From NCBI GenBank assembly GCA_963851265.1, contig CAWKNZ010000002.1, forward strand, positions 1,536,001 through 1,600,000: DNA of 64,000 nucleotides, read 5' to 3'. Position numbers and translations under genes: made by a program. Source of the DNA: an uncultured Gemmatimonadales bacterium. GTDB lineage: Bacteria; Gemmatimonadota; Gemmatimonadetes; Gemmatimonadales; Gemmatimonadaceae. The notes under the pieces are model-generated. The model had not been told where the DNA came from, made no database searches, and worked only from the letters and a program-made list of their open reading frames with translations. Below, piece by piece: positions 620 to 62,692 of this stretch. How positions within the stretch are numbered: the first letter of the stretch is position 1; each line of letters starts with the position of its first letter.

Positions 620-1765
620 TTACGTGCGCGACCGATCCGCCGAGGCGCGCACCACGTCGACCACGCGGCGAGCAATCCGGGCCGCCGCGTCGGGCCGTCC
701 GCGGGCCGACGCGGCAACCCGCATCGCGGCGGAACGCGCGACGTCACCCCGAAGCGACGCGATGCATTCGGCAAGCCGCGGCGCGCTCAACTCGCGCTGC
801 GGCAGCTGGACCGCCGCACCCGCGTCCGCCAGCGTTCGCGCGTTGCGCGTCTGATGGTCCGCAGCGGCGGTCGGCAGCGGCACGAGCACGCTCGGCAAGC
901 CCCACGCGCACAGTTCAGCGATCGTCATCGCGCCGGCTCGCGTGACGGCGAGATCGGCAGCCTCATACGCGCGAGCCATCGGCGCGAGGTACGGGAGCGC
1001 GCGTACCCGCCCACCGTGCGCTCCGTCGAGCGCGGCGTACGGCTCGAACTGCGTCCGTCCGGTAGCCCAGATCAGCGCCACACCGTCGGGCAGGCCGCCG
1101 CGCACCCACGCCGCGATCGCCTCGTTGACCGCGCGTGCACCCTGACTGCCGCCGAACGCGAGCACGACGTACGCGTCGGACGCGAACCCCCACGCGCGCC
1201 TCGCGTCCGCTGGCGCCGCGCGCCGCACGGGCGGGGGTTCGATGGGATTGCCGAACGCGTGCACGTGCGTACCCCGCCCCGGGGTCAGGCGCGCCGCGGC
1301 CTCCGGGAAGCCGAGGAACACCTCGGCGGCGCGCCGCGCGACAATGCGCGTGGTCGCGCCGGGGAAGCTATCGGCCTCCTGCAGCATTGCTGGCACACCG
1401 TGCACCACGGCATACGCGAGCGCCGCGCCCGCGGCGTACCCGCCCGTTCCGAGCACCGCGCGCGGCCGCTCCCGCGCGAACAGCACGCCCAACGCACGCC
1501 ACGCCGCCAGGCCGCCGGCGGCCGTCCGCCAGTTCTCCCACGGACGCTGCCGGTAGAGCGGGTGGAGGTCGAGCAGCAGATGCCGGAACTCCGTGGTCGG
1601 CAGCACGTCTCGCTCGATCCCGCGCCGCGCGCCCACGAACACGGGCTCGATGTCGCGGTCGAGCGCGACCACCGCGCGCGCGACGGCGAGCCCGGGGTAC
1701 AGGTGCCCGCCCGTGCCGCCGCCGGTCACGACGAGGCGGACCGGACCGGCGCCCGCGCCTAACAT
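620..1765 (-). CDS. murG: Undecaprenyl-PP-MurNAc-pentapeptide GlcNAc transferase
   Basis: GGGTGGH, GTGGY, GGSQGA, RAGAMT and DHQTRNA motifs; dcw context. Confidence 0.96.
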   Translation of the reverse strand: MLGAGAGPVRLVVTGGGTGGHLYPGLAVARAVVALDRDIEPVFVGARRGIERDVLPTTEFRHLLLDLHPLYRQRPWENWRTAAGGLAAWRALGVLFARERPRAVLGTGGYAAGAALAYAVVHGVPAMLQEADSFPGATTRIVARRAAEVFLGFPEAAARLTPGRGTHVHAFGNPIEPPPVRRAAPADARRAWGFASDAYVVLAFGGSQGARAVNEAIAAWVRGGLPDGVALIWATGRTQFEPYAALDGAHGGRVRALPYLAPMARAYEAADLAVTRAGAMTIAELCAWGLPSVLVPLPTAAADHQTRNARTLADAGAAVQLPQRELSAPRLAECIASLRGDVARSAAMRVAASARGRPDAAARIARRVVDVVRASADRSRT

Positions 1766-1781
1766 CCGGCCGCCGCGGTGC

Positions 1782-3068
1782 TCACGCCGCGGGCGTCGGC
1801 CTGGCGAGCGGGTTCGTCGCGCCCTCGCCGACCACGCGCTGCCGCTCGCTCCCGATGTTGACGAGGATCGCGGTCATCAACATCGACAGGATCAGGTTGG
1901 ACCGGCCGTACGAGATGAAGGGCAGCGTCAGCCCCGTCGTCGGCAGCAGTCCGATCACCACGCCGATGTGCAGATACGCCGTGAGCGACGTCATCGTCGT
2001 GAGTCCGACGGCGACGAGCTGCTGGAACCGCGTCGTCGCCTGCCGCGCGATGCGGAACCCGAGCCACGTGTACGCCGAGTACGCGAGCGTCAGGACGACC
2101 AGTCCGACGAACCCCCACTCCTCGCCGACGTTGCTGCCGACGAAGTCCGAGTATGGGAACGGGAGGAACCCGTACTGCTGCCGCCCCTGGGCGTACCCGA
2201 CGCCGAACAGCCCGCCCGACCCGACGGCGAGCAGCGACTGCTTGAGCTGGTAGTTCACCTCCGCACGCGCGTCCCCCGTGCCGAGGAACGCGAAGATCCG
2301 CAGCATCACGTACTGCAGCTTCTCGACCTCGCGCCAGAGGACGGGGACGCTGAGCACGCCGAGCGCGATGAAATGCCCGATGCGCACCCCGCCCGCGAAT
2401 AGGATGATGGCCATGATGAGCACGAACGTCATCGCGATCGACAGGTCCGGTTCGAGCGCGCCCATGACCGCGAGCCCGCCGACGACGACGAGGAACGGGA
2501 ACAGGCCCTTCGTGAGCCGGCGAAGCTGCCCGGTCTCGAGCTTCTTGACGAGCAGCATCGCCGTCCACACGATCACGGCGAGCTTCGCGAACTCCGACGG
2601 CTGAATCGATCCCCCGAGCAGGAACCGGCGCGACCCGTGGATCGGCGGTGCGATGCGGCGCGTGAACGGCAGCACCGTCAGCATCATCGTGACGTACGCC
2701 GCGCCCATGAGCGGCCACGCCCAACGCTTCCAGCGCTCGGCGTCGGTCTTCGCGATGACGGCGAACACCACGGCGCCCGCCGCGATCCCCTGCAGCTGAC
2801 GCCACAGGTAGTGCGCACTCGGCCGTCCCTCCTGCATTGCGACGATCGCACTCGCGCTGTACAGCACGACGAGGCCGAACGCGAGCAGCGTCGCCGTCAC
2901 GAGGACGAGCGCGCGCGCCTCGACGCCCATCTTCCAGCGCTCGCGTACGTCCGCCCGCGGCGCCGGGCGCGCCTCCGCGGCCCCGGGCGTCTCGTCGGCA
3001 CGCTGCGTCGAGCGTCGGTCGTACGCGCCGCTGGTGGCGGGCGCGAGCGGGGTGGCAATGGCGGGCAT
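1782..3068 (-). CDS. ftsW: SEDS peptidoglycan polymerase FtsW
   Basis: Multi-TM protein with SIQPSEFAK, EPDL and LPTTGLTLPFISYG; start placed at ATG 3068 (MPAIAT), just after the murD stop. Confidence 0.93.
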   Translation of the reverse strand: MPAIATPLAPATSGAYDRRSTQRADETPGAAEARPAPRADVRERWKMGVEARALVLVTATLLAFGLVVLYSASAIVAMQEGRPSAHYLWRQLQGIAAGAVVFAVIAKTDAERWKRWAWPLMGAAYVTMMLTVLPFTRRIAPPIHGSRRFLLGGSIQPSEFAKLAVIVWTAMLLVKKLETGQLRRLTKGLFPFLVVVGGLAVMGALEPDLSIAMTFVLIMAIILFAGGVRIGHFIALGVLSVPVLWREVEKLQYVMLRIFAFLGTGDARAEVNYQLKQSLLAVGSGGLFGVGYAQGRQQYGFLPFPYSDFVGSNVGEEWGFVGLVVLTLAYSAYTWLGFRIARQATTRFQQLVAVGLTTMTSLTAYLHIGVVIGLLPTTGLTLPFISYGRSNLILSMLMTAILVNIGSERQRVVGEGATNPLARPTPAA

Positions 3069-5709: not shown

Positions 5710-7134
5710 TCAGGCGCGCGTCGCGCCGGCGGTCGCCCACGCTTCGAGAAAGGGAACGAGCTGCTCGAGCCGCACGCCGCGCGAGCCCTTGAGAAGGATC
5801 ACCGCGTCGGCCGCAAGTCGCGATTCGAGCTGCGGCCAGAGCGCGACCGGATCGGCCGCGGCGATCACGCGCGTGTCGTCGGGAGCCACGCGCGCGAGCG
5901 CGTCCGCGAACTCGCCGACCCCGGCCACCACGTCGACCTCGCGCGCGAGCGCGTAACGCGCGATCTCGTCGTGGAGCGCGACGCCGGACGCGCCGAGTTC
6001 GCGCATCGTGCCGAGCACCGCGACGCGCTGCCTCGGGGTCGCGCCGGCACGCCCCGCCGACGCGAGCAGGTCGAGCGCGGCGCGCGTCGACGGCGGGTTC
6101 GCGTTGTACGCGTCGTTGATCAGCGTCGCCTCGCCGAGCGCCGTCCACGCCGTCCGCATGCTCGGCACCGGCATGGTCGCGAGCCCGCGTGCGGCGTCCG
6201 GGAGCGGCACTTCGAGCGCGCGCGCCGCCGCGACGGCCAACATCGTGTTCCGCAGGTTGTGCGCGCCCCGCAGCGGCGAGCGCAGCTCGACGCCGTCGAC
6301 GACGATCGCGCCCGTCCCGTCATCCGCGAGCGACCACGCGTCGGCGCGAACGTCGCCCGCGTCGAGCCCCGCGGTGATCACGTCGCGCGCGCGCCCGCGG
6401 GCGGCGTGCGCGATCTCGGGCTGGTTCGCCGGGACGATCGCGAGCCGCGCCCCGTCGAACGCGTCGCTCTCCTCGCGGAGCACACCGGCGAGATCGCCCA
6501 GACCTTCGAGGTGCTCCTCGCCAATCGAGGTCATCACGACGACGTCGGGCTCGGCGATCGCGCGCAGCGCGGCGATCTCGCCCGGGGCGTTGGTCCCGAG
6601 TTCGACGACGGCCACGTCGGCGGTGTCGGGAAGCGCGAGGAGCGTGAGCGGCACGCCGACGAGGTTGTTCAGGTTACCCGCCGTCGCGTGCACCGCCCGC
6701 GCGGCGCCCAACGCGGCGCGCAGCAACTCCTTCGTGCTGGTCTTGCCGTTCGAACCCGCGACCCCGACCACGACGCGGCCGGGCCGCGCCCAGGCGCGGC
6801 GGCGGTACCGGGCGAGCGCGCCTAACGCCTCGCGCGTGTCGCGCACGGGGTACACGGGAACCGGCAGCGCAGCCGCGCGCGCGGCGTCGTGCACGACGAG
6901 CGCGCGCGCTCCGCGTGCCACGGCGTCGGCGAGCAAGTCGTGCGCGTCGTAGCGCTCGCCCACGAGCGCGACGAACAGATCGCCGTCCGCGACGGCGCGG
7001 GTGTCGGTCGCGACCGCGCGCAGGGTGCCGTCGCCGCGGGGCGGCGACGCCGTCGCGACGTCGGCGAGCGCCTCGCCAGCGCGGTCCAGCGTCCAGAACG
7101 CGAACGCCTCCGGCGGCGCCGATCCCCCGCTCAC
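5710..7134 (-). CDS. murF: UDP-MurNAc-tripeptide--D-Ala-D-Ala ligase
   Basis: GSNGKTSTKE, GNLNNLVGVP, INDAYNANP, LGTMRELG, LKGSRG. Confidence 0.96.
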   Translation of the reverse strand: MSGGSAPPEAFAFWTLDRAGEALADVATASPPRGDGTLRAVATDTRAVADGDLFVALVGERYDAHDLLADAVARGARALVVHDAARAAALPVPVYPVRDTREALGALARYRRRAWARPGRVVVGVAGSNGKTSTKELLRAALGAARAVHATAGNLNNLVGVPLTLLALPDTADVAVVELGTNAPGEIAALRAIAEPDVVVMTSIGEEHLEGLGDLAGVLREESDAFDGARLAIVPANQPEIAHAARGRARDVITAGLDAGDVRADAWSLADDGTGAIVVDGVELRSPLRGAHNLRNTMLAVAAARALEVPLPDAARGLATMPVPSMRTAWTALGEATLINDAYNANPPSTRAALDLLASAGRAGATPRQRVAVLGTMRELGASGVALHDEIARYALAREVDVVAGVGEFADALARVAPDDTRVIAAADPVALWPQLESRLAADAVILLKGSRGVRLEQLVPFLEAWATAGATRA

Positions 7135-8651
7135 GCAGGCACCGCCGAGAGTTCGCGAACGATCGCGGCCTCGTCGAACGGCAGCGACGTCGTACCGCGA
7201 ATCTGGTAGGTCTCGTGTCCCTTGCCCGCGAGGAGGACGACGTCATCGGGCGCCGCGATCGCGAGCGCGCGCGCGATCGCGGCGCGTCGGTCCTCGATGC
7301 GCTCGTGCGGGCGCGCGAGCCCCGCCGCCACGTCGTCGAGAATCCGCTCCGGGTCCTCGGTGCGCGGGTTGTCGCTGGTGATCACGACCACGTCGGCCCC
7401 GGCCTCGGCGGCGCGCGCCATCTCCGGCCGCTTGCCGCGGTCGCGGTCGCCGCCGGCCCCGAACACGACGATCACGCGGCCGCGCGCGAACGGCCGAACT
7501 GCCGCGAGCGCACGTGCGAGCGAATCGGGCGTGTGCGCGTAGTCCCGCAACACGACCGGCCGCGCGCGCAACAACTCGAGCCGCCCCGGCACCTGCGGCA
7601 GCGTCGTGAGCCGCTCCGCGCACGCAGCCGGGTCCATGCCTAACGTCCACGCCGCCGCCGCCGCGCCGAGCGCGTTCGCGACGTTGTAGTCGCCGACGAG
7701 CGGCACGCACGCCGCGTGCGACGCGCCGGCGGCGCGCAGCGCGAAGCGCGTCGCCGCGCCGTCCGCACGCACCGAAACCGCCGCGACGTCGAGTCCGCGT
7801 GCGGCCGCGCCCGCATCGTCTGCCGCGACGCCCCAGCGCACGAGGAGCGGCGCCGCGGGCAGGGCCGTCCACGCGGGGTCGTCAGCGTTCACCACCGCGG
7901 CGCCACCGGGTGCGATCGCGCCGATCAGGCGCGCCTTCGCGGCGAAGTACGCCTCCATCGAGCCATGGTAGTCGAGGTGGTCACGCGTGAAGTTCGTGAA
8001 CACCGCCGCCGCGAACTGCACCCCGTCCACGCGCCGCTGCTCGAGCGCGTGCGACGAGACCTCCATCGCCACCGCGCGCACGCCCGCGTCGGCCAGCGCG
8101 CGGAGCACCCGCTGCAGCTCGACGGGTCCAGGAGTCGTGAGGCCGGCCCCCCCGCCCAACGCGTCGCCCACCGAGCCGACCAGGACACCGAGGGTGCCGA
8201 CGGACGCCGCGCGCGCGCCCGGCGCGTCCAGCAGATGGCGGAGCATCGCGACCGTGGTCGTCTTCCCGTTGGTCCCGGTCACGCCCACGAGCGTGAGACG
8301 AGACGCGGGTTCGCCGTAGAACGCGGCGGCCGCGATCGCGGCCGCGCGTCGTCCGTCACGCACGACGAGCGTGGGGAGCGTCGTCGCGTCCTCACGCTCG
8401 ACGAGTGCGAGCGCCGCGCCGCCCGCCGCGGCCGACGCGAGGTGGCGGTGGCCGTCGTCCTGCGCCCCCTGGACGGCGATGAACAGGCCACCCGAGATCA
8501 CGCGACGGCTGTCGTCGGCGATCCCGGTAACCACGTCCGGCACCGCGCCCGTCGTCCCCACCAGCACACCGGCGCGCGCGAGCGCGTCCGCGATCACGGC
8601 CGTCCCGACCGGCACGGGCGCGCCGTGACCTTCCACCACGGCTTCGGACAT
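7131..8651 (-). CDS. murE: UDP-MurNAc-dipeptide--meso-diaminopimelate ligase
   Basis: TGTNGKTTT, MEVSSH, DHLDYH, DYAHTPD, DNPR (meso-DAP signature), LAGKGHE; ATG 8651 overlaps the ftsI stop. Confidence 0.96.
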   Translation of the reverse strand: MSEAVVEGHGAPVPVGTAVIADALARAGVLVGTTGAVPDVVTGIADDSRRVISGGLFIAVQGAQDDGHRHLASAAAGGAALALVEREDATTLPTLVVRDGRRAAAIAAAAFYGEPASRLTLVGVTGTNGKTTTVAMLRHLLDAPGARAASVGTLGVLVGSVGDALGGGAGLTTPGPVELQRVLRALADAGVRAVAMEVSSHALEQRRVDGVQFAAAVFTNFTRDHLDYHGSMEAYFAAKARLIGAIAPGGAAVVNADDPAWTALPAAPLLVRWGVAADDAGAAARGLDVAAVSVRADGAATRFALRAAGASHAACVPLVGDYNVANALGAAAAAWTLGMDPAACAERLTTLPQVPGRLELLRARPVVLRDYAHTPDSLARALAAVRPFARGRVIVVFGAGGDRDRGKRPEMARAAEAGADVVVITSDNPRTEDPERILDDVAAGLARPHERIEDRRAAIARALAIAAPDDVVLLAGKGHETYQIRGTTSLPFDEAAIVRELSAVPA

Positions 8652-10771
8652 CAGGGCTGCCGGTAGAGCGTGACCACCGCGCCGGCCGCCGCGAGCGCGC
8701 CGGCCGCGGGGACCGTGCGCAACGCCGCGCGCCCGAGTGTGCGCGCCGCGCCCGGGACCGCGCCCGGCATCCCCGGCGCGACCCGTGCGTCGAAGCCGGC
8801 GCGCTCCAGCGCGAACAGCGCGTCCCGGAGCGGAAGCCCATGTACCGGCGGTACGGTCCGCGGCGGCGCGGCGAATGCGGTCGTGTCGTGCGACGCGACT
8901 CGCGCCGTGCGCGCGGGCAGGTCGAGCACCACGCGGACGGGCGCGGGATCGACCGCCGGCGCGTCGGCGTCGCGCCGCAACTCGGCCGGTACGAGCGTCG
9001 TCGGCGCGGGCGCGGCCGAGTCGCGCACAGCCGTCGCCTTCGCATCCGTCACGGTCCACGGACGCGCCGGCGTCGGGTGAGGGCGGTACGCCTCGCGCGC
9101 GCGCGGCAGCACGTCGGGCGCGAGCGACGCGCGGTCGAGCGCCGCGTCGCGAGCCGCCAGCGCGGCTTCGAGCACGACCTTCGACACAGGCGCCGCCGTC
9201 TTCCCCCCGAAATACACGCCCGCCGGGTTATCGAGCTTCACGACAATCACGAACTGCGGCGACTCGACGGGGAAGATCCCGGCGAACACCGCGTTGTAGT
9301 GGCCGGCCGCGTACCCCACCCCGCGTTCGATGCGTCGCACCGTGCCGCTCTTCCCGCCTAACGCAAAGCTCTTCAGGTCCGCGTCGGTCGCGGTGCCGCT
9401 GTCGACCACGCTCTTGAGCATCGCGCGTACGTCCGCCGCGACCGCGGGCGGCATCACGCGACGCACCACGCGCGGCCGGTGCCGGAACTCGACCGTCCCG
9501 TCCGCGTCGCGCACCTCACGCACGAGCGCCGGCTCGAGCAGTTCGCCGCCGTTCGCGATCGCGCCATACGCCGCGGCGAGCTGCAGGGGCGTCGCGGCGA
9601 TCTCGTAGCCCATTGCGAGCGACGCAGGGGACTGCTTGGTCCACTTGTCCGGCGCGCGCAGGGTCCCCGACGCCTCGGCCGGGTACGGCACGCCGGTCGG
9701 CGTCCCGAAACCGACGTCGCGCAGCGCCTCGTACTGTTCGTGAGGCGTGAGGCGGCTCGAGAACTTCACGATCCCGATGTTGCTCGAAAACCGGATCACG
9801 TCGCGCAACGTCAGCGCGGCCGCCTTGTGGATGTCGTGGATCGTGCGCCCGTTCGTGGTCCACGCGCCGTCCTCGGTGTTCACGACATCGTCGAGCCGGG
9901 CCTTGCCCAACCGTAACAGCGCCGCCGCCATGAACGGCTTCGCCGTCGACCCGGGCTCGAACGGCTCCGCGATCGTCGTCGCCGCGGTCGTGCGCGCGTC
10001 GGCCCGCTGACTCGCGAGCGCGAGCACCTCGCCCGTCTTCGGGTCGAGGACGACGATGTCGCCGCCCGACGCCGACATGCGGGACACCGCGTCGGCGAGC
10101 GCGCGCTCGCAGATGTCCTGCAGCGTCCAGTTGAGCGTGAGCGCGACCGTGCGCCCCGGGCGCGCGGCCACCGACTGCACGCTCGGCGACTCGAAGCGGC
10201 CGCCGCGCGCGTCGCGCAGCAGCAGCGCCGTCCCGCGTTCGCCGCGCAGCACGCTGTCCAGCGCGAGCTCGACGCCGTCGAGGGGCTCCCCCGAGGGATC
10301 CACGCGGCCGACGATCCGCCGCACTCCCTCGGTCGCGTTCGACAGCCGGTCGACGACGGGAACCGGGTGCACTCCGCGCAGCGCGGTGGCCGCGGCAGCG
10401 TCGCTCGGCAGGTAGCGCCCCGGCAACTCGACCCACGCGCGTCCCGTGTCGGCGGCGCGCGCCACCCAGGGCGCGGGAACGCCCGCGGCCGTGAGCGCCC
10501 GGCGCAGCGCGACGCGGTCCTGCACCTCGCGCGGCGCCACCCGCAGCTGCACCAGCTGACGGCTCTCGACGAGCACCCGCCCGCTCGCGTCGGTGACGGC
10601 GCCGCGCGGCGCGGGCAGCGACGCGTCGGCCACCTGCTGCCGCGCCGCGCTCGTCCGCCAGCGCTCGGCCTGGAACAGCTGCACCTGCGCGGCTTTGACG
10701 ACGATCGCGCCGACGAACAGGACGAGCGCGCCGTGGACCACGGCGGGGCGGTCGAATCGCGGAAGTCGCAC
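8651..10771 (-). CDS. ftsI: Class B penicillin-binding protein FtsI/PBP3 with C-terminal PASTA-like region
   Basis: SxxK (GSTAK), SxN (SSN) and KSG motifs; N-terminal TM; start uncertain (GTG 10771 chosen). Confidence 0.92.
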   Translation of the reverse strand: MRLPRFDRPAVVHGALVLFVGAIVVKAAQVQLFQAERWRTSAARQQVADASLPAPRGAVTDASGRVLVESRQLVQLRVAPREVQDRVALRRALTAAGVPAPWVARAADTGRAWVELPGRYLPSDAAAATALRGVHPVPVVDRLSNATEGVRRIVGRVDPSGEPLDGVELALDSVLRGERGTALLLRDARGGRFESPSVQSVAARPGRTVALTLNWTLQDICERALADAVSRMSASGGDIVVLDPKTGEVLALASQRADARTTAATTIAEPFEPGSTAKPFMAAALLRLGKARLDDVVNTEDGAWTTNGRTIHDIHKAAALTLRDVIRFSSNIGIVKFSSRLTPHEQYEALRDVGFGTPTGVPYPAEASGTLRAPDKWTKQSPASLAMGYEIAATPLQLAAAYGAIANGGELLEPALVREVRDADGTVEFRHRPRVVRRVMPPAVAADVRAMLKSVVDSGTATDADLKSFALGGKSGTVRRIERGVGYAAGHYNAVFAGIFPVESPQFVIVVKLDNPAGVYFGGKTAAPVSKVVLEAALAARDAALDRASLAPDVLPRAREAYRPHPTPARPWTVTDAKATAVRDSAAPAPTTLVPAELRRDADAPAVDPAPVRVVLDLPARTARVASHDTTAFAAPPRTVPPVHGLPLRDALFALERAGFDARVAPGMPGAVPGAARTLGRAALRTVPAAGALAAAGAVVTLYRQP

Positions 10772-10793
10772 GGGACGTGAAATGCCTAACTGT

Positions 10794-17413: not shown

Positions 17414-19080
17414 GAGACGGACGGCACGTCGGCGCCGGATCGGCCGAGCGCCTCCAGGTTGGCGCGCGCGGTCGGGTGGTCGGGTCGCAAGTTACACGCG
17501 CGCTGCCACGCGTGGCGCGCGGCGTCCCGGTCGCCGGCCCGCAGCGCCAGCGTTCCGAGGCGCGCCCAGGCCGTCGAGGAACCGTCGGGTGCGAGGCGCG
17601 TCGCTGCCGCGTACGCGTTCCGTGCGCGGTCGAACTGCCCGGCGCGGTAGAGCAGGTCGCCCAGGAGCCGTTGCGCGGGCGCGAGATCGGGCCGTTCGGC
17701 GAGTGCCTGCATCACGCCGCCCAACGGCTCGCCCGCGCCGCGCCCCTCAACGCGCGCGCCCGCGCCACCCGCGCGCAGCGCCGCGTCGTTGGCGAGAAGC
17801 GCCGCCGCGCGTGGGTGCGCGGCCACACCCTCCCGGGCGAGCGCGGACGCGCCGTCGATGTCTCGCACGCCAAGCGCCGCGAGCACGGCGTAGTGGTACC
17901 ACACCGCGGCCGGCTGCGGCCAGTGCGCGCGCGCTCGGTCCAGGAGGTGCCGTGCGGCGACCCAGTCGCGTCGGTCGAGCGCGAGTGCACCGCGTGCGGT
18001 GAGGTGTCGCGGGTCGTCACCGAGCCCGAGTCTCGCGGCGCGCGCGTATGCCTCGTGGGCGAGTTCGAACTGTCCAAGTCGGTGAAGTGTGACCCCGAAC
18101 GCATGCACCGTCGCGGCGCTCGCACCCGGAGTTGCCGCAGCTTCGCCGAGCACGGCCGCGGCCTCGTCGACACGCCCGGCCCGCAACGCCGCCGCGCCGA
18201 GATGCGCGCGGGCTGTCGCGTCCGTGGGCCGCAGTTCGAGCACGCGCCGCAACTCTCGGAGCGCCTCGTCGAGCAGGCCCGCCCGCGCGAACGCGATGCC
18301 AAGGTTGAGGTGCTCGTCGGCCCGCGCCCCCGCAAGTCGCAGCGGCGCGACGCTGGCGTCCGTCGCGACGCGCCGCGCACGCCCGTCGCGGACGAGCGCA
18401 TAGATCGCGCGTGAGACGGCGTACGTCGAGAGCCCGCTCGCGTCGGCCACGCTCTGCACGTCGCGCTGGCCATCGAGCAGCGCGGTGACGCGCCCGATCT
18501 CGTCGGCGGCTACGTCAACGGCGGGGGACGCGGACCAACGCTCGCCACGTGGAACCGTCGCGAACACGCTGCCCACGCCGGGCACCTCGGTCGCGATCAG
18601 CACGCCCTCGTCGGCGCGGCGCGCGGATTCCAAGAGGAGCGATCCGACATCGAGTTGGACGGCCAGTTCGGCGGCAAACGGCGGTACGTCCGAATCGAAG
18701 CTGAACGTACCTCGCGTCCAGCCCAGCAACTCGTACGCGGCCTCGGCAGACTGCGTACGCAAGAGCGCGAGCAGGGCCGCGTGCGGGACGGCACCGCGAC
18801 GGACGAGCAGCAGCCCCAAGGGGCTGTCGGGTTCGGCGGCCTGGGCGACGAGCGCGGCACGCAATTCCGAATCGGGGAGTAGTCCGGCGCGGACGAGCGC
18901 GCCGCCGAGCGGATCGCGACGGTGGGCGAGCGCCGCGTGCGCGACCGCGCCGTCGACGAAGCTGAGCGTGCCGAGCTCGCCGTCGCGCGCGACGCTGAGC
19001 CGGCCCGTCCGCCGGCCTAACGCGAGCAGTTGCACGACGTCGGGGAGCGCCGCCTCGGCGAGATTCCCGCGGAGCGCCAT
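17410..19080 (-). CDS. DUF4388 (PATAN-like) domain + winged helix + TPR protein
   Basis: N-terminus MALRGNLAEAALPDVVQLLALGRRTGRL…WTRGTFSF…LLLESARRADE is typical of DUF4388; C-terminal TPRs. Confidence 0.82.
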   Translation of the reverse strand: MALRGNLAEAALPDVVQLLALGRRTGRLSVARDGELGTLSFVDGAVAHAALAHRRDPLGGALVRAGLLPDSELRAALVAQAAEPDSPLGLLLVRRGAVPHAALLALLRTQSAEAAYELLGWTRGTFSFDSDVPPFAAELAVQLDVGSLLLESARRADEGVLIATEVPGVGSVFATVPRGERWSASPAVDVAADEIGRVTALLDGQRDVQSVADASGLSTYAVSRAIYALVRDGRARRVATDASVAPLRLAGARADEHLNLGIAFARAGLLDEALRELRRVLELRPTDATARAHLGAAALRAGRVDEAAAVLGEAAATPGASAATVHAFGVTLHRLGQFELAHEAYARAARLGLGDDPRHLTARGALALDRRDWVAARHLLDRARAHWPQPAAVWYHYAVLAALGVRDIDGASALAREGVAAHPRAAALLANDAALRAGGAGARVEGRGAGEPLGGVMQALAERPDLAPAQRLLGDLLYRAGQFDRARNAYAAATRLAPDGSSTAWARLGTLALRAGDRDAARHAWQRACNLRPDHPTARANLEALGRSGADVPSVS

Positions 19081-27769: not shown

Positions 27770-28350
27770 GCGAGCCCCGCCGGCGTGCGGCCTAACGGCA
27801 TTTCGGCGCGCGAGGTGCGGCGGTCGTCGGCTCCCCACAGGACGCGGCAGAGCATGACCACGCCCAGCGTGACCGCGACGTCCGCGACGTTGAAGGTCGG
27901 CCACCGGTGCTGGCCGACCCCGACGTCGAGGAAGTCGACGACGCCGTCTTCCGAGATCACGCGCGTGAGCGCGTTTCCGAGCGCGCCCGCGGCGAGCAAC
28001 GCGAGCGCGACCACGCGGGAGTTCGCACGGTCCGGCGTCGCGCGGTACAACCGCCAGACGACGCGCAGCACGACGACCGTGAGCACCAGGAAAATCGCGC
28101 GCGACCACGGTCCGAGGTGGAGCCCGAACGCCGCGCCCGGGTTGTAGACGAGCGTCAGCCGCAGCCACTCGCCGGCGACCGCGTGCGGGAAGCCTGCCGG
28201 CGAGAGGGCGTAGGCGGCGATCGCCTTCGTCAGCAGGTCCACGAGCACGACGAGCACGACGACGGGCCAGAAGACCACGCCGTTCGTGTTCGCCGCGTCC
28301 GCGCGCGCCGACGCCGGACCGGCCGGCAGGTCAGCCGCCCTTCTTGCCAT
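27766..28350 (-). CDS. lspA: Lipoprotein signal peptidase II (copy 2, divergent)
   Basis: DLLTK, NPGAAFG, GALGNALTR, VVDFLD, FNVAD. Confidence 0.88.
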   Translation of the reverse strand: MARRAADLPAGPASARADAANTNGVVFWPVVVLVVLVDLLTKAIAAYALSPAGFPHAVAGEWLRLTLVYNPGAAFGLHLGPWSRAIFLVLTVVVLRVVWRLYRATPDRANSRVVALALLAAGALGNALTRVISEDGVVDFLDVGVGQHRWPTFNVADVAVTLGVVMLCRVLWGADDRRTSRAEMPLGRTPAGLA

Positions 28351-32735: not shown

Positions 32736-32791
32736 GAGGGGAGCAAGCGGGAGCGGTGGGCGCCCGCGGGGGCGCCCGTACACGGATCGTG

Positions 32792-35705: not shown

Positions 35706-36511
35706 CCGGCGAGCGGGATGGTGGCGTACTCGGACGTGCGCCCGCCGCGCCCGCGCAGGAGGTCGCGCAGCTCTGCCGGCTGGAGCGCGCGTCGGAGGCG
35801 CCCGTCCACGGCGAGCGACACGGTCCCAGTCTCCTCACTGACGACCACGACGAGGGCGTCGCTCTCCTCGCTCAGGCCGAGCGCGGCGCGGTGCCGGGTG
35901 CCTAACGACCGGTCGTCGACGCGCGCCTGCGAGAGCGGCAGAATGCACCCCGCACCGACGATCGTGTCGCCGCGCACGACGACGGCGCCGTCGTGCAGCG
36001 GCGAGTACGGCGTGAAAATCGTCGCCAGCAGGTCGCCAGAGACCTTCGCGTTGAGCAGCGTTCCCGTCTCGAGCACGTCGCCGAGCGAGACCTCGCGTTC
36101 GAGCGCCACGATGGCGCCGGTGCTCGACCGGCTCAGGCGCTCGACCGCGTCGCCGATCTCGTCGACGACTTCGTCCTCTTCGAGTGCGCGGACGAGGCGC
36201 GTGGTTCGCGGTTGCGTCAGGTGCAGCACCGTCGCCCGGAGCTCCGGCTGGAACGCGACGAGCGCGACGAACGGCAGATACCGGACCGCGGCCGCGAGGA
36301 GCGTTCCGAGCAGCGTGAGTTCGAGCGCCCACGCGACGCCGTACGCGACGGCGAGGACGAGCAACGCGACCACGAGTTGAACGGCGCGCGCGCCGCGGAC
36401 GACGCGCAGCATGCGGTACGCGACCCACCCGACCACTCCGACGTCGAGCACGTCGCGCCAGCCGACGTGGAAGGCGTCGCCGAGCGCGCGGGAGAGGTCG
36501 GGGGTCGGCAT
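35702..36511 (-). CDS. cdaA: Diadenylate cyclase CdaA/DacA
   Basis: Three N-terminal TMs, FQPELR, GAIVALER, PLHDGA, LGTRHRAALG. Confidence 0.92.
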   Translation of the reverse strand: MPTPDLSRALGDAFHVGWRDVLDVGVVGWVAYRMLRVVRGARAVQLVVALLVLAVAYGVAWALELTLLGTLLAAAVRYLPFVALVAFQPELRATVLHLTQPRTTRLVRALEEDEVVDEIGDAVERLSRSSTGAIVALEREVSLGDVLETGTLLNAKVSGDLLATIFTPYSPLHDGAVVVRGDTIVGAGCILPLSQARVDDRSLGTRHRAALGLSEESDALVVVVSEETGTVSLAVDGRLRRALQPAELRDLLRGRGGRTSEYATIPLAG

Positions 36512-48441: not shown

Positions 48442-50108
48442 CCGCGGAGCGGGTCGCCGTGCGGCGGCTCCGGGTCGGAGGCGTCGCCCGGAACCGCGGC
48501 CTCCGCCCCGTCCAGGAGCGCGTACGCGCCTAACGTGAGGAACTCCTCGAACCGCTCGCTCAACACCAGGCGGTCGAGGAGGGAGGCGGCGTCGCGCAGG
48601 CGGTGGACCGTGCCCGCGCGTTCGGCCTCCAGCGCGTCGAGCTGGCCGGCGCGGACGGTCCGATAGTGGTCGGCGGTGATCGACGTCCCCTCGGCCGTGG
48701 TCACCCCGCGGTGAACCCACTGCCAGAGCTGCGCGCGCGAGATCTCCGCCGTGGCCGCGTCCTCCATCAGGTTGTGGATCGCGACCGCGCCCGCGCCGCG
48801 GAGCCACGCTTCGAGGTACTGGAGCGCGACGTCGACGTTCAGGCGCACCCCGGCGTCGGTGACCGTCCCGCCCGGGACGTGCAGGTCGGCGATGGCGTGC
48901 GCGTCGCGGACGACGTCGTCGCGCAGGCGCTCCTTCTGGTTCGCGCGGTCGCCGAGCTGCGCGGCGAAGACGTCCATCGCGACCGGCACGAGGTCGGGGT
49001 GCGCGACCCACGTCCCGTCGAACCCGTCGCCCGCCTCGCGCAGCTTGTCCTCGCGCACGCGCGCTACGGCCGCCTCGGTCACGGCAGCGTCCCGCCGGTT
49101 GGGGATGAACGCCGCCATCCCGCCGATCGCGTGCGCGCCGCGGCGGTGGCAGGTCTGGACGAGCAACTCGGTGTACGCGCGCATGAACGGCACCGTCATC
49201 GTGACCTGGGAGCGGTCGGGGAGCACGGGCGCGCCGGGGAGCACGCCGAGCTTCTTGATGGCCGAGAAGATGTAGTCCCAGCGGCCCGCGTTGAGCCCCG
49301 ACGCGTGGTCGCGCAGCTCGTAGAGGATCTCGTCCATCGCGAACGCGGCAAGGATGGTCTCGACGAGCACCGTGGCGCGCACGCTCCCGTGCGGGATGCC
49401 TAACGCCTGCTGCGCGTACACGAACGCGTCGTTCCACAGCCGCGCTTCGTCGCGCGCCTCTAGCTTCGGGATATAGAAGTACGGCCCCGTCCCGCGCGCG
49501 AGCGCCTCCGCGGCGTTGTGGTACATGTGGAGCCCGAAGTCGAACAGCGACCCCGAGACCGGTCGCCCGTCGACGAGCACGTGCGACTCGTCGAGGTGCC
49601 AGCCGCGCGGGCGCACGAGCAGCGTCGCGGTCGCGTCGCGCAGCGCGTAGCGCTTGCCGCCCTGCTCCATCTCGAGCGTACGGCGGACGGCGTCCATGAG
49701 GTTGCCCTGCCCGTCGACGACGTTGCGCCACGTCGGGCTGTTCGCGTCCTCGAGGTCCGCCATGAAGCAGTCCGCGCCCGAGTTGAGCGCGTTGATCATC
49801 ATCTTGCGGTCGACCGGGCCGGTGATCTCGACGCGGCGCCGTTCGAGGTCGGGCGGGGTGGACGCGACGCGCCAGTCGCCGGCGCGCACGCCGGCGCCGT
49901 CCGCGCCGAACTCCAGCGGTTCGCCGGCGGCGAGCCGCGCCTGCCGCTCCCGCCGCGCGTCCAACAGCTCGCGGCGCCGCGCGCCGAACCTGCGATCGAG
50001 GTCCGCCACGAAGGCGAGCGCCTCGGGCGTGAGCACGCGATCAGCGTCGGCGGGCAACTCGCCCGACGCCGGCGGACGGATTTCGACTCCCGAGGGAAGC
50101 GCGGACAT
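48414..50108 (-). CDS. aceB: Malate synthase A
   Basis: [56 protein letters not shown]. Confidence 0.96.
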
Positions 50109-54501: not shown

Positions 54502-56819
54502 CGCACGGGTGCAGTCGACGCCGTGCGCGCCGACGCGCCGCCCGCGAGCCAGTAGCCGAACCACTGCCGTAGACGGCCCAACCGATCGGCGAGCAGCCAC
54601 GGCTCGCCGCTGCGCGACAACTCGTGCGTACTGCGTGGGTAGCGGACGAACTCGGCCGGTACACCGCGCTTGCGCAGCGACTCGAACCACATCTCCGCGT
54701 TGCCCATCGGCGTGCGGAAGTCGTCCTCGCTCTGCACCAGCAGGGTCGGCGTGCGTACGCGCGCGACGTGGCGCACCGGCGAGAGCGAGTCGTACATCGC
54801 CTGGTTGTCCCACGGCTTGCCGTAGAATTCGAATTCGGTGAGCCCCTGAGCGTCGCTCGCGCCGTACCAGTAGGTCCAGTCGCTGATCATCCGGTCGACC
54901 TGCGCCGCGCGGAAGCGATTCGTCTTCGTCGTGATCCAGGCAGTCATGAAGCCGCCGTACGAGCCGCCGGTGACGCCCATACGCGTGCTGTCGACGTCGG
55001 GCCGCCGCGCGGCCAGGTCGACGGCGTTCATCAGGTCCTGATAGTCCTCCGCACCCCACCGGCCGCGCGTTGCGTACGTGAAGTCGCCGCCGTAGCCGGT
55101 CGACCCGCGCGGGTTGATGTACAGCACCATCATCCCCGCCCCGGCCAGGTTCTGGAACTCGTCGAACCAGTTCTCGCCGTAGTTGGAATGCGGGCCGCCG
55201 TGGATATAAAGCACGAGCGGGTAGCGGCGGGTGCTGTCGTATTCGAACGGCTTCATGATCCAGCCTTCGATCGGCAGCCCGCCCACGCTCGCGAAGGTGA
55301 ACCGCTCGGCGTCGCTGAACGCCACCTCGCGTCGGAGCGCGTCGTTGAAGTTCGTGAGGCGTCGTTCGCCGGTCCCGTCGGCGTTCGCCGCGAAGAGTTC
55401 GGTGGGCGTCGTCGGCCCGGTCGCGACGTAGGCGACGACGTGCGCGGCGGTGTCGACGGTGAGGCCGCTCAGTCTGCGACGTCCGCCGATCACTTCGCGG
55501 ACCCCGCCGCCGCCGGAGCCGACCCGGTAGAGCGCCGTGCGGCCACCCACCTGCGCGCTCATCAGGAGCAGGCGGTCCGACGCCCACGCGAACTGCTCGG
55601 GCTCGTAGCGGAACTCGCCTAACAGATCGCGGACGCGCCCGCTCGCCACGTCGACCGTCGCGAGCCGCGCGGACTTCGTCCGGCCGGGGTGCCAGACGAA
55701 CGCGACCGTCCGTCCGTCGGGCGACCATGCGAGTTGCGCCTCGCTGCCCGGGAGCGCGGCGAGCTTTCGCGGCTCGGCGCTGCCGTCAACCGGAACGACG
55801 TAGATGTCGACGTCATCGCGGTCGACGTCGTCGCGGGCGCGATCGTAGGGCAGGCGCGCGAGCGAGTCGCGCGTGGCCTGTACGAGCGAGTCGCTGCGGA
55901 GTGCGGAATCCCCCACGAACGCGATGAGGCGCCCATCGGGAGAGAGCGCGGCATCGCGATGCGCGTAGGCCGTCGTCGTCAGGACACGCCGCGCGGTGTC
56001 GCCAGGGCTCCACGCATACAGTTGCGCCGGGTGCGCGCGCGGCGATCCCGCCGGGTTGGGGACGAATCCGCGGTCGTTGCTCTTGTACGGGATTTCGTCG
56101 AAGTGACGCCCGTCGAAGCGGCGCGCGTCGATGGGTTGCGTCACCGCGCCGAACGGGGGCCGAGAGACAGCCTGCCGAGCGGCGGCGTTGGCTGGCGTCC
56201 GGCCGGCAGTCCCGGCGCGTGCGGCACCGCGCCCGGTCGAGTCGGTCGGCGGGAGCTCGGCGCGCGCCGTGTCGGAGGTCGGGCGCGTGCTGTCCGACCA
56301 CACGGCGAGGCGGCCGTCGCGCGACCAACTCGCGCCCGCGGGCGGTGCCGACGCAACGCGAATCGGCGCCCCGCCGGCGCTGTCGGGCGAGACCGCGTAC
56401 GTCGCGGCCACGCCGCGCCGTGGCGCGACGCTCACGTACAGGGTTCCGTTCGGGGAGAAACGCGGCGCGGTGACGTCGACGGAGTCTCCGAACCGCAGCC
56501 GCGTCGGCGTACCCGCGCCCGCCGGAACGAGCCAGACTTCGGAGCGGCGCCGGTTCTCCGCCTGGACGACGCGGGTAACGACGACCGCGACGCGCGCTCC
56601 GTCGGGCGACGCCGCCGGAGCAGCGAGCGTCGCGATCTCGTAGGTGTCCGTCGGGCGGAACGCGCGGCGTGCGAGCGACCGGAGCGAGTCGGGCGCGGCC
56701 GACGCGACACGCGGCGCGGGCGCCTGCGCGCGGACCGCGGGCGCATACGCGCCGACCGCGGCGACGGTCAGGACGGTCGCGCGAACGACACGCGAGGGGT
56801 GTGAGAAGGACGGGCGCAT
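54498..56819 (-). CDS. Secreted S9 family (prolyl oligopeptidase/acylaminoacyl) peptidase
   Basis: Signal peptide, propeller repeats (SPDG), IHGGP, GGSYGG, EDDFR, THELSRSG. Confidence 0.93.
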   Translation of the reverse strand: MRPSFSHPSRVVRATVLTVAAVGAYAPAVRAQAPAPRVASAAPDSLRSLARRAFRPTDTYEIATLAAPAASPDGARVAVVVTRVVQAENRRRSEVWLVPAGAGTPTRLRFGDSVDVTAPRFSPNGTLYVSVAPRRGVAATYAVSPDSAGGAPIRVASAPPAGASWSRDGRLAVWSDSTRPTSDTARAELPPTDSTGRGAARAGTAGRTPANAAARQAVSRPPFGAVTQPIDARRFDGRHFDEIPYKSNDRGFVPNPAGSPRAHPAQLYAWSPGDTARRVLTTTAYAHRDAALSPDGRLIAFVGDSALRSDSLVQATRDSLARLPYDRARDDVDRDDVDIYVVPVDGSAEPRKLAALPGSEAQLAWSPDGRTVAFVWHPGRTKSARLATVDVASGRVRDLLGEFRYEPEQFAWASDRLLLMSAQVGGRTALYRVGSGGGGVREVIGGRRRLSGLTVDTAAHVVAYVATGPTTPTELFAANADGTGERRLTNFNDALRREVAFSDAERFTFASVGGLPIEGWIMKPFEYDSTRRYPLVLYIHGGPHSNYGENWFDEFQNLAGAGMMVLYINPRGSTGYGGDFTYATRGRWGAEDYQDLMNAVDLAARRPDVDSTRMGVTGGSYGGFMTAWITTKTNRFRAAQVDRMISDWTYWYGASDAQGLTEFEFYGKPWDNQAMYDSLSPVRHVARVRTPTLLVQSEDDFRTPMGNAEMWFESLRKRGVPAEFVRYPRSTHELSRSGEPWLLADRLGRLRQWFGYWLAGGASARTASTAPVR

Positions 56820-61693: not shown

Positions 61694-61736
61694 GGCGGCC
61701 GACCGCGGATCGCCCGACCGCACCTCGTCGCGGATC

Positions 61737-62692
61737 CTAACGACCGGCGGCCCGCGCCTCGCGTTCGAAGAACTCGACGATCCGTTCGGACGCGTTCACG
61801 CCCGGAGCCGGCCGCGGCGCGAAGATGAACGGCCGGCGTCCGCCCGGCCATGCGTGCGCCTGTGCCGCGACGACGAGTTCGCGCACGTCGCGGCCGGGGG
61901 GACACGCCGTGGCGCGGATCTCGATTACCGCGGCCGAGCTGTCGCGCTCGGCGGCCGACGCGCAGCCATTGCGGCGACTCCAGTACCGCAGCGCGCCCGC
62001 GAACGAGACCGCGAACGCGTTGCGATTGCGCCGCTGGTTGTCACGGTGATCGGCGCGCAGCTCTCCGTCTTCGGCACCGCGGACGAGCATCACCGGGAGT
62101 GCGGCGCGACCCTGACACACGGTGTCGGGCATCGCGCCGGCGACGTCCGCGACGCCCGCGACGAACGCATCGGGTTGGCAGGCGAGTCGGAGCGCGAGCA
62201 TGCCACCGTTGGAGAAGCCCGTCGCGTACACCCGCCCGCGCTCCGAGACGCCGAGCGCGACGAGCGAGTCGGCGACCGCGCGCGCGAAGCCCACGTCGTC
62301 CACCTCGTTGTCGGGGGCGGCGCCGCAGCACGTGATTGCGTTCCACGCGAGGTCGAAGTACCGGATGCCGCCCGTGCCGTTGAGGTAGGCGACGGCCCAC
62401 CCGTGCCGGTCCGCAACGGCGTCGAGCCCGGTCGTGTGCTCCATGATGTTCGCGTTCGCCTGGTAGCCGTGGAACGCGAGGAGCAGCGGGACCACGCGTC
62501 GCGGGCCGGGCGGCAGGTGCAGCAGGTACGACCGCTCGCGCCCGGCGGCGCGCATCGTGTGAAACGTGGTCTCGCCCGGGCGTGCGACGGCGAGCGGGCG
62601 GGCGCCCAGAATCGGGGCGCACGCCGCTGCGGCCGCGACGAGTCCGCCTAACAGGATGCGGAGCGCCGCCGCGCGCCGCGCGCCGGGGTCAC
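61737..62692 (-). CDS. PHB-depolymerase/LpqP-family esterase (probable 1-nt frameshift near the 5' end)
   Basis: RSYLLHLP, AFHG, WNAITCCG, VDDVGF, TGFSNGG, HAWPGG; signal peptide lies upstream of the track's ATG 62555. Confidence 0.8.

What the first reader, a model, noticed from the sequence alone, without database searches (positions are those of the whole stretch)
1757..62652. Over-represented, strand-polarised heptamer GTTAGGC that forces rare TTA codons
Seen (manual count, may be incomplete): GCCTAAC occurs on the + strand at 1757, 6820, 7638, 9356, 10784, 19015, 20784, 24129, 27790, 31243, 31780, 35070, 35900, 38597, 48528, 49398, 55617 and 62646 (18 copies), against only 2 in the other orientation (32791, 34321). 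Base composition alone (~73% GC assumed) predicts about 3 per strand. All 18 read as nnG-TTA-GGC (Leu-Gly) in the frame of the local minus-strand ORF (murG, murF, murE, ftsI, cheA, lspA, ileS, cdaA, aceB and others), although TTA is otherwise very rare here. I found none in the ~10 kb of plus-strand genes, where 3-4 would be expected if gene orientation alone explained it. Inference: a lineage-specific DNA signal written into synonymous codons, such as a Chi-like, KOPS/AIMS-like, uptake, methylation or nucleoid-protein site. A bldA-like TTA control is less likely because the flanking bases are fixed.
Basis: partly seen in the sequence, partly recalled or inferred. Interest (0 to 1): 0.75.

Follow-up and report, generated by a model that had tools for sequence, protein, structure and literature searches.

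The report
Genome-wide DNA word, not strand-polar
This soil bacterium and about a third of its family have written the eight-letter DNA word CGTTAGGC into genes, stop codons and spacers far more often than chance and against their own codon habits, much like the DNA-uptake "self tags" of Neisseria and Haemophilus, and its one-sided look in this window only reflects the direction of the local genes.

Summary
The counts are exact: GCCTAAC lies 18 times on + and 2 times on - (shuffles give 2.1). The word is really YGTTAGGC. It has 1762 heptamer copies in the 4.6-Mb genome and is the top 8-mer under a third-order Markov null.

It is a DNA-level word, not a codon pair. All four stop-free frames are enriched 8-41x over a codon-aware null. 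Short spacers carry twice the genome density, and the flanking C is kept in every class.

The polarity is not intrinsic. + and - genes carry equal sense densities, no segment shows a replication-linked bias, and noncoding copies split 285:286. Per compatible peptide the antisense frame is used as often as the TTA frame (15.3% against 10.0%).

The word is rich in 27 of 91 family genomes. Richness is unrelated to IntI, RecC/AddAB, ComP, ComEC or PilQ.

My best reading, at 0.42, is an uptake-sequence-like self tag kept up by biased DNA exchange, with an unknown reader. The word equals the attC core of this order's integrons, which is unexplained.

This scan had already reported the same word from other windows of this genome.

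The parts
1757..1763 (-). GTTAGGC overlapping the murG start: ATG-TTA-GGC
6820..6826 (-). GCG-TTA-GGC in murF
7638..7644 (-). ACG-TTA-GGC in murE
9356..9362 (-). GCG-TTA-GGC in ftsI (transpeptidase)
10784..10790 (-). CAG-TTA-GGC in ftsI (A, not Y, before the heptamer)
19015..19021 (-). GCG-TTA-GGC in a DUF4388-TPR gene
20784..20790 (-). GCG-TTA-GGC in a TPR gene
24129..24135 (-). GCG-TTA-GGC in cheA
27790..27796 (-). CCG-TTA-GGC near the 3' end of the upstream of two tandem lspA genes (ORF 27766-28542). In the overlapping ORF 27194-28168 it would read GTT-AGG-C.
31243..31249 (-). GTG-TTA-GGC in ileS. Orthologous codons are CTC or CTG in the word-poor relatives.
31780..31786 (-). GCG-TTA-GGC in ileS. 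The orthologous site is CAG-CTC-GGC in 6 of the 13 word-poor relatives aligned.
32791..32797 (+). Opposite copy. On the minus strand it reads GCC-TAA-C and gives the TAA stop of ORF 32792-33751 (Ala_racemase_N family).
34321..34327 (+). Opposite copy, antisense inside the TMEM260-like gene: CGC-CTA-ACG
35070..35076 (-). ACG-TTA-GGC in the TMEM260-like gene
35900..35906 (-). TCG-TTA-GGC in cdaA
38597..38603 (-). ACG-TTA-GGC in an MFS transporter gene
48528..48534 (-). ACG-TTA-GGC in malate synthase
49398..49404 (-). GCG-TTA-GGC in malate synthase
55617..55623 (-). CTG-TTA-GGC in a peptidase S9 gene (ORF 54498-57050)
62646..62652 (-). Noncoding copy (CTGTTAGGCGG) in the spacer between the aldehyde dehydrogenase gene (ends at 62689) and the esterase gene (starts at 62555)

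Best explanation
YGTTAGGC is a short word read on double-stranded DNA in either orientation. It is neither a polar signal nor a translation signal. It spreads through the genome by a sequence-biased process that pushes near-matches to the exact word, against selection on codons and, at some sites, on amino acids. The process I think most likely is biased DNA exchange. A DNA-import machine, or some other transfer machine, prefers fragments that carry the word, and homologous recombination then fixes such fragments. This is how the uptake sequences of Neisseriaceae and Pasteurellaceae are thought to accumulate. Shown here: the DNA-level nature of the word, the lack of intrinsic polarity, the multi-base substitutions that create it, and its patchy spread in the family. 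Inferred only: the exchange bias itself and the existence of a reader protein. In this window the 18:2 asymmetry arises because almost all genes run on the minus strand, and the cheapest way to write the word in a gene is nnG-TTA-GGC over the common dipeptide Leu-Gly.
For: 1. Size of the excess. There are 1762 heptamer and 1396 octamer copies in 4.6 Mb. In a 400-kb sample there are 129 copies against 6.6 expected under a third-order Markov null (z 47.7, rank 1), and the next words are shifts of the same word.
2. DNA level. I resampled synonymous codons in 1980 of 2998 self-called genes (those with high margin and at least 600 nt, with the first 150 nt and the stop dropped). Observed against null: sense G-TTA-GGC 747 vs 25.7; sense GTT-AGG-C 33 vs 0.8; antisense G-CCT-AAC 156 vs 16.8; antisense GC-CTA-AC 56 vs 7.0. 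C precedes the heptamer in 79-85% of copies among in-frame, antisense and unclassified copies alike.
3. Noncoding DNA. There are 121 copies in 153 kb of 10-350-bp spacers, or 0.79/kb against a genome mean of 0.38/kb, with 12.7 expected from composition. Convergent spacers are densest (34 in 20.6 kb). In tandem spacers 40 copies point with and 31 against transcription.
4. Stop codons. 76 of 275 TAA stops are GCC-TAA-C and 58 of 483 TAG stops are GT-TAG-GC.
5. No intrinsic polarity.
6. Directional change. Both ileS sites of the window are CTC or CTG in word-poor relatives. One needed four base changes and a Gln-to-Ala replacement. TTG-GGC intermediates occur at the same codons, and genome-wide TTG-GGC shares the upstream G (92.4%).
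7. Same word and same Y at -1 in G012, at 62-64% GC and one copy per 0.7-0.8 kb.
8. The density range (one per 0.8-6 kb) and the higher frequency of one orientation in reading frames match published uptake sequences. PMC2817400 (outline and abstract read) lists 1471, 765 and 1892 copies. PMC2346458 (abstract read) reports the orientation bias.
9. Import genes are present: ComEC in 21 of 21 relatives, DprA in G000, and PilQ-like secretins in 90 of 91.
10. Family spread. The word is rich in 27 of 91 genomes, and two species of one genus can differ 3896 vs 66. That fits a gained or lost reader better than weak selection at each site.
Against: No uptake experiment exists. No reader was found. The Neisseria receptor family ComP_DUS gave only weak pilin-helix matches in 11 of 91 genomes. 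One was above the cut-off, in a word-poor genome, and only 2 were in the 27 rich genomes. ComEC, DprA and PilQ-like genes are equally present in poor genomes, so they are permissive only. Inverted pairs that would form terminator hairpins, common for the Neisseria DUS (recalled), are few: 6 pairs within 40 nt. Spacing is Poisson-like (CV 1.07), not more even than random. Exact one-off variants are scarce except TGTTAGGC and GTTGGGC. The word-poor relative G006 has no other hyper-abundant word, so no 'dialects' were seen (only 400 kb sampled). The exact identity with the integron attC core is not predicted by this reading.
Confidence: 0.42

Rival explanations
1. A selected chromosomal binding site: the word is bound by a nucleoid, repair or nuclease-attenuating protein (a Chi-like 'self' mark in the broad sense) and is kept by selection on the host chromosome, not by transfer bias.
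For: The word is exact, dispersed and Poisson-like in spacing. Close pairs are fewer than expected, 26 against 66 within 100 nt. The word is shared by many genera.
Against: Weak selection per site is unlikely to force the rarest Leu codon and amino-acid replacements at thousands of sites, up to one per 0.8 kb. No RecC was found in 0 of 21 genomes. An AddAB-type nuclease domain was found in only 2 of 7 rich and 5 of 14 poor genomes. There is no replication-linked orientation.
Confidence: 0.2
2. A sequence-specific repair or conversion bias: an enzyme that acts at near-cognate sites (in the manner of very-short-patch repair, or a nickase with biased repair) writes the word without any DNA exchange.
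For: The exact core is sharply preferred. TTA followed by GGA, GGG or GGT occurs 7 times each, against 781 for GGC. The patchy, fast-changing distribution fits a mobile enzyme.
Against: No single one-off neighbour is selectively depleted in the way a one-base patch repair would predict, and TGTTAGGC is enriched, not depleted. Sites arise by up to four substitutions. No candidate enzyme was tested.
Confidence: 0.13
3. An integron-linked word: the copies are R-box-like sites read by the integron integrase or a related tyrosine recombinase, or derive from attC cores.
For: The word is letter for letter the R' core (CGTTAGGC) and R'' core (GCCTAAC) of attC sites. In a 30-kb stretch of G015:C95, 19 of 29 GTTAGGC copies have an RYYYAAC partner 81-98 nt upstream, with conserved inner repeats. 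G000 has attC-like units at C10:194558-194655 and C10:202950-203047. The general core consensus GTTRRRY/RYYYAAC is in print (search listing only). The Y at -1 mirrors the two attC arms: C before R', and A after R''.
Against: Near-full IntI (E at most 1e-100) occurs in 14 of 27 rich and 34 of 64 other genomes. 9 of the 27 rich genomes, among them G080 with 4115 copies and G050 with 3249, have no match at E 1e-40. G000's own intI is split by a serine-recombinase gene. Only 2 paired attC-like units were seen among 1762 copies in G000. Word-poor genomes carry arrays with the same core.
Confidence: 0.12
4. A replication-polar signal such as KOPS, AIMS or classical Chi, whose orientation follows the leading strand.
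For: The window shows 18:2. Long one-sided runs exist wherever genes are co-oriented.
Against: The odds ratio of sense to antisense copies in + against - genes was tested in 18 of 20 segments, and none was significant (lowest p 0.061). Unclassified copies split 285:286. Sense density is 0.244/kb in + genes and 0.273/kb in - genes. The contig that carries dnaA has 36 and 46 copies on its two strands. Caveat: the assembly has 12 contigs and no replication GC skew, so the origin and terminus could not be placed.
Confidence: 0.03
5. A translation-level or codon-pair effect (TTA-GGC pairing, or bldA-like control through the single tRNA-Leu(UAA)).
For: In the gene set, 747 of 992 genic copies are in the TTA frame. 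There is one tRNA-Leu(UAA) gene.
Against: Antisense frames and spacers are enriched too, and with the same flank. The base before TTA is fixed. Per opportunity, the antisense Pro-Asn frame is used more often than the TTA frame.
Confidence: 0.02

Closest known systems
DNA uptake sequences: DUS of Neisseriaceae and USS of Pasteurellaceae
   Same: One exact short word in hundreds to thousands of copies, in both orientations, in genes and spacers. One orientation is favoured in reading frames, encoded peptides are shifted, and the word is shared by related species (PMC2817400 abstract and outline; PMC2346458 abstract).
   Different: A different phylum (named Gemmatimonadota only in earlier scan notes). 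A search for 'Gemmatimon' together with 'uptake sequence' found 0 papers. The word forces rare codons in every frame, whereas USS frames follow preferred codons (PMC2817400 abstract). No ComP-type receptor was found. There are few inverted pairs. The word is present in only 27 of 91 family genomes, and no dialect was seen in G006. Uptake bias is untested.
Integron attC/attI core site (GTTRRRY / RYYYAAC)
   Same: Identical letters, including the flanking C, as in the attC sites of cassette arrays in this order and in G000 itself.
   Different: The genome-wide copies are single, lie inside ordinary genes, and lack the partner core and inner repeats. Their abundance is unrelated to IntI.
Chi sites (RecBCD/AddAB) and KOPS (FtsK)
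   Same: Over-represented non-palindromic octamers dispersed over the chromosome.
   Different: No leading-strand orientation. RecC was not found in 21 genomes, and the AddAB-type nuclease was missing from 5 of 7 rich genomes. The excess is far larger, and it goes against codon usage.

Membership tests
DNA uptake sequences (DUS/USS) | One exact short word, hundreds to thousands of copies, far above expectation | tested here: met
   1762 heptamer and 1396 octamer copies; 129 against 6.6 expected in 400 kb, rank 1
DNA uptake sequences (DUS/USS) | Found in both orientations, in several reading frames and in noncoding DNA | tested here: met
   All four stop-free frames are 8-41x over a codon-aware null; spacers carry 0.79/kb
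DNA uptake sequences (DUS/USS) | One orientation commoner in reading frames (PMC2346458 abstract) | tested here: met
   780 sense against 212 antisense copies, explained by peptide opportunity
DNA uptake sequences (DUS/USS) | Frequent inverted pairs acting as terminators (Neisseria; recalled) | tested here: not met
   Only 6 inverted pairs within 40 nt among 1762 copies, although convergent spacers are densest
DNA uptake sequences (DUS/USS) | Cells preferentially take up DNA that carries the word | not testable with these tools
   Needs uptake or transformation assays
DNA uptake sequences (DUS/USS) | A dedicated receptor (ComP minor pilin in Neisseria) | tested here: not met
   PF16732: weak matches in 11 of 91 genomes, one above the cut-off in a poor genome, 2 of 27 rich
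DNA uptake sequences (DUS/USS) | DNA import machinery present | tested here: met
   ComEC in 21 of 21, DprA in G000, PilQ-like in 90 of 91. All are equally present in poor genomes, so permissive only
Chi (RecBCD/AddAB) | A RecBCD or AddAB enzyme to read it | tested here: not met
   PF04257 found in 0 of 21; PF12705 found in 2 of 7 rich and 5 of 14 poor
Chi / KOPS / AIMS | Orientation follows the replication direction | tested here: not met
   None of the 18 segment odds ratios tested (20 segments) was significant; noncoding copies split 285:286. Replichores could not be placed
Integron attC site | Core letters GTTRRRY / RYYYAAC | tested here: met
   The word is GTTAGGC / GCCTAAC
Integron attC site | Paired inverted cores 50-150 bp apart with inner repeats | tested here: not met
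   Only 2 such paired units in G000 (C10), against 19 of 29 copies in the G015 array
Integron attC site | Dependence on an integron integrase | tested here: not met
   IntI near-full in 14 of 27 rich against 34 of 64 others
bldA-like TTA control | The rare TTA codon itself is the signal, whatever its context | tested here: not met
   772 of 1109 TTA codons have fixed flanks; the same word occurs antisense and in spacers

The most novel reading that the evidence does not exclude
Integron gene cassettes, which carry the core in both arms of each attC, would then be favoured cargo, and the thousands of chromosomal copies would be the by-product of that preference through molecular drive. This would be the first uptake-type self tag outside Proteobacteria and a direct link between transformation and integron cassette traffic.
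Probability: 0.1. Interest if true: 0.9.

Novelty: new variant of a known kind. Interest (0 to 1): 0.68.

Why it matters
Sequence-specific DNA uptake tags are known from only two proteobacterial families. A 2025 preprint (10.1101/2025.10.24.684340; abstract start seen in the listing) defines DNA uptake enhancing sequences as the DUS of Neisseriaceae and the USS of Pasteurellaceae. Here is a word of the same statistical kind in a common soil family. It is strong enough to override codon usage in a 73% GC genome and to replace amino acids. It is switched on in some species and off in close relatives, which gives a natural experiment for finding what reads such words and how fast they build up and decay. 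Its identity with the integron recombination core raises the testable idea that DNA exchange and cassette capture are coupled. For this finding in particular, the apparent strand polarity is shown to be ordinary, so the Chi/KOPS line of thought can be dropped.

Tried and rejected
- **Maximal-order Markov ranking of 7-mers**. It hid the word because its sub-words are the word itself. A third-order model worked.
- **Median of same-composition 8-mers as a null**. It is dominated by coding words and is of little use beyond the neighbour table.
- **First gene caller based on GC3**. It made strand errors, for example spurious + ORFs at 15300-16574 and 26447-28147, which Pfam exposed. A codon-table caller was better but still imperfect, so counts use high-margin genes only.
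- **Placing the origin.** dnaA lies on contig C1. I found no DnaA-box clusters and no parS-like sites with the recalled consensus words, and no replication GC skew.
- **Origin-exclusion idea.** A 45-kb word-free stretch around gidA-parAB suggested it. I rejected it because the orthologous regions of G001, G004 and G012 carry the word.
- **Phyletic association** with IntI, RecC, the AddAB-type nuclease, ComEC, ComP_DUS and PilQ: none found.
- **A second hyper-abundant word ('dialect')** in word-poor G006: none found.
- **Literature search on the bare word.** It returned primer listings only.
- **Careful IleS tree.** It did not finish, so I used the quick tree.
Full report
**Observation.** GCCTAAC lies 18 times on the + strand and twice on the - strand (32791, 34321). 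Dinucleotide-preserving shuffles give a mean of 2.14 and a maximum of 8, in a window of 70-76% GC. The window is G000:C2:1536001-1600000 of a 4.6-Mb, 12-contig assembly.

Pfam scans of the local ORFs and a frame check show that 17 of the 18 minus-oriented copies read nnG-TTA-GGC in supported minus-strand genes. One of them overlaps the murG start as ATG-TTA-GGC. Another lies in the upstream of two tandem lspA genes. The copy at 62646 is in a spacer.

The two opposite copies also belong to minus-strand genes. One supplies a TAA stop (GCC-TAA-C) and the other reads CGC-CTA-ACG.

The plus-strand ORFs cover about 10.3 kb and hold no copy, where 3.4 are expected (P = 0.033). That is a weak, post hoc deviation.

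**The word and its excess.** Genome-wide there are 1762 heptamer copies, 877 and 885 on the two strands. C precedes the heptamer in 79% and T in 14% of copies, and G follows in 54%. The core is therefore YGTTAGGC, with 1396 exact CGTTAGGC copies.

In a 400-kb sample CGTTAGGC is the top 8-mer under a third-order Markov null (129 against 6.6, z 47.7), and the runners-up are its own shifts.

In my gene of 1109 TTA codons are G-TTA-GGC, and TTA is followed by GGC 781 times against 7 each for GGA, GGG and GGT. One tRNA-Leu(UAA) gene exists, so TTA is readable.

**DNA level, not codon pair.** I resampled synonymous codons while keeping the protein sequences. The gene set was 1980 of 2998 self-called genes, those with high margin and at least 600 nt, with the first 150 nt and the stop dropped. 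The null is conservative because its codon table contains the word's own TTA codons.

| Frame | Observed | Null |
|---|---|---|
| Sense G-TTA-GGC | 747 | 25.7 |
| Sense GTT-AGG-C | 33 | 0.8 |
| Antisense G-CCT-AAC | 156 | 16.8 |
| Antisense GC-CTA-AC | 56 | 7.0 |

The other two frames contain a stop. The preference for C at -1 holds at 79-85% in in-frame, antisense and unclassified copies.

TTA-GGC is preceded by a G-ending codon in 99.3% and a CG-ending codon in 77.8% of cases, against 58.0% and 25.3% for CTC-GGC. So a dicodon null cannot absorb the signal.

Spacers of 10-350 bp between called genes hold 121 copies in 153 kb. That is twice the genome density and about ten times the composition estimate of 12.7. 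Convergent spacers are the densest.

76 of 275 TAA stops and 58 of 483 TAG stops are built from the word.

**Polarity.** This is the new claim of the finding, and it does not hold as a property of the word.
- Third-position GC skew has a transcription component only; its gene-strand-corrected mean wanders around zero.
- I classified every copy by local codon periodicity. Of 1762 copies, 571 were left unclassified. I then compared sense and antisense copies in + and - genes over 20 contig segments. The odds ratio could be tested in 18 segments and none differed significantly from 1 (lowest p 0.061).
- The unclassified copies split 285 to 286 between the strands.
- With an independent gene caller, sense density is 0.244/kb in + genes and 0.273/kb in - genes, and antisense density is 0.071 and 0.078/kb.
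- The contig that carries dnaA has 36 and 46 copies on its two strands.
- In tandem spacers 40 copies point with and 31 against transcription.

The 3.7:1 sense excess inside genes is a matter of opportunity.

| Peptide context | Reading | Written with the word |
|---|---|---|
| X-Leu-Gly | sense | 747 of 7457 (10.0%) |
| X-Pro-Asn | antisense | 156 of 1020 (15.3%) |
| [SRGC]-Leu-Thr | antisense | 56 of 1340 (4.2%) |
| Val-Arg-[LPHQR] | sense, two rare codons | 33 of 2458 (1.3%) |

The window looks polar because its genes are almost all on the minus strand. One limit remains: the origin and terminus could not be placed in this draft assembly.

**How sites arise.** I aligned ileS from 20 of 21 relatives; G009's two fragments were left out. 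The window's site at 31780 is GCG-TTA-GGC in all five genomes of the genus and in G012. It is CAG-CTC-GGC in 6 of the 13 word-poor genomes aligned and also in word-rich G008. That is four base changes and a Gln-to-Ala replacement. The site at 31243 is GTG-TTA-GGC in four genomes, GTG-TTG-GGC in two congeners, GTA-TTA-GGC in G008, and GTG-CTC or GTG-CTG in four of the word-poor genomes of the same family. G012 adds three antisense copies and one GTT-AGG-C copy at codons that differ in all the others. Genome-wide, TTG-GGC shares the upstream G in 92.4% of cases, as expected for intermediates or decayed copies.

**Distribution.** Among 21 relatives the octamer is abundant in all five genomes of the genus (727-2415 copies), in G008 (605) and in G012 (6360). 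The other 14 hold 3-65 copies. On a quick IleS tree (the careful search did not finish) the rich genomes are not one clade: G008 pairs with poor G006.

In an even sample of 91 family genomes from 64 genera, I counted the table by hand. In 27 genomes the word exceeds twice its reversed control, 7 are intermediate, and 57 hold less than half the control. Congeners can differ sharply (G051 3896 against G099 66). G012 has the same Y at -1 at 62-64% GC. A 400-kb sample of poor G006 holds no comparably extreme word; its top z is about 11. G011 and G038 are unpublished genomes. They are word-poor rows in these tables and no conclusion rests on them.

**Candidate readers.** None of the genes tested co-varies with richness in the word.
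- **RecC** was not found in any of 21 genomes.
- **An AddAB-type nuclease domain** was found in 2 of 7 rich and 5 of 14 poor genomes.
- **ComEC** is in 21 of 21.
- **DprA** is in G000.
- **ComEA:** the model matched G000 only below its cut-off.
- **PilQ-like secretins** are in 90 of 91.
- **ComP_DUS** gave weak matches in 11 of 91 genomes, 2 of them rich.

**Integron link.** A lead from earlier scan notes held up when tested. In word-poor G015 most copies sit in one 24-kb island. There, 19 of 29 GTTAGGC copies have an RYYYAAC partner 81-98 nt upstream and conserved inner inverted repeats. This is an integron cassette array whose attC R'' and R' cores are GCCTAAC and CGTTAGGC. G000 has two such paired units on C10, and a third R' end at C6:1015 matches one of them.

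Near-full IntI occurs in 14 of 27 rich and 34 of 64 other genomes. 9 rich genomes have no match at E 1e-40. G000's own intI is split by a large serine-recombinase gene. A chance identity of a 7-mer is about 1 in 10,000, so the coincidence remains unexplained.

**Verdict.** The word is real and extreme, and it is read at the DNA level. It is not polar and it is not a codon-pair effect. Several features fit best a molecular drive of the uptake-sequence type:
- its density;
- its strand symmetry per opportunity;
- its presence in spacers and stop codons;
- its creation by multi-base and amino-acid changes;
- its on/off pattern among close relatives.

No uptake data exist, no reader was found, and several DUS/USS hallmarks are missing. 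I therefore put this reading at about 0.42, ahead of a selected chromosomal binding site (0.20), a repair or conversion bias (0.13) and an integron-linked recombinase word (0.12).

A search for 'Gemmatimon' with 'uptake sequence' found no paper. PMC8618304 (one passage read) lists Gemmatimonadota among the phyla with integrons. The same word had already been reported by this scan from six other windows of this genome, with the same leading interpretation. What this report adds is the polarity test, the per-opportunity frame analysis, and the family-wide lack of association with IntI, ComP, RecC/AddAB, ComEC and PilQ.

Noticed in passing
G000:C1:182876-227962 (outside the window): A 45-kb stretch with no copy of the word. 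About 6e-5 gaps of this size are expected. GC is normal (0.738) and the genes are ordinary core genes, including mnmG (gidA), parA, parB and mnmE. The orthologous regions of G001, G004 and G012 do carry the word.
   Followed up: partly
G000:C6:2951-7469 (L052): The integron integrase gene is split. Its N-terminal part and its last ~55 residues lie 2 kb apart on the minus strand, with a large serine recombinase gene (Resolvase, Recombinase and Zn_ribbon_recom domains) between them on the plus strand. A BrnT-family ORF and small ORFs with attC-like ends lie beside it.
   Followed up: partly
G000:C10:194558-194655 and 202950-203047: Two attC-like units (GCCTAACG, about 90 nt with inner inverted repeats, then CGTTAGGC) far from the intI remnant. 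They may be a cassette cluster without an integrase.
   Followed up: no
window 27194-28542, minus strand: Two tandem signal peptidase II (lspA) genes in overlapping ORFs downstream of ileS. Both match Peptidase_A8 over nearly the full model.
   Followed up: partly
window 39239-41395 (-) and 50710-53055 (+): Two FtsH-type AAA/M41 protease genes within 10 kb on opposite strands.
   Followed up: no
G015:C95:1-24000 (L027, L028): An integron cassette array of about 25-30 cassettes with two alternating attC subtypes. No integrase match was reported on this contig: the two partial IntI matches of G015 lie on C80 and C93.
   Followed up: partly
whole genome G000: TAA makes up 275 of 2407 stops in high-margin genes of a 73% GC genome, and 28% of those TAA stops are supplied by the word (GCC-TAA-C).
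   Followed up: yes
G000:C2:1000000-1250000: A strongly co-oriented plus-strand gene region holds several of the longest word-free gaps (12-22 kb) and about 11 copies per 50 kb, against a mean of 19. This may be avoidance in highly expressed genes.
   Followed up: no
family sample: In word-poor genomes the octamer is 10-25 times rarer than its reversed control (for example 6 against 107). The rich state therefore starts from a strongly disfavoured word.
   Followed up: no
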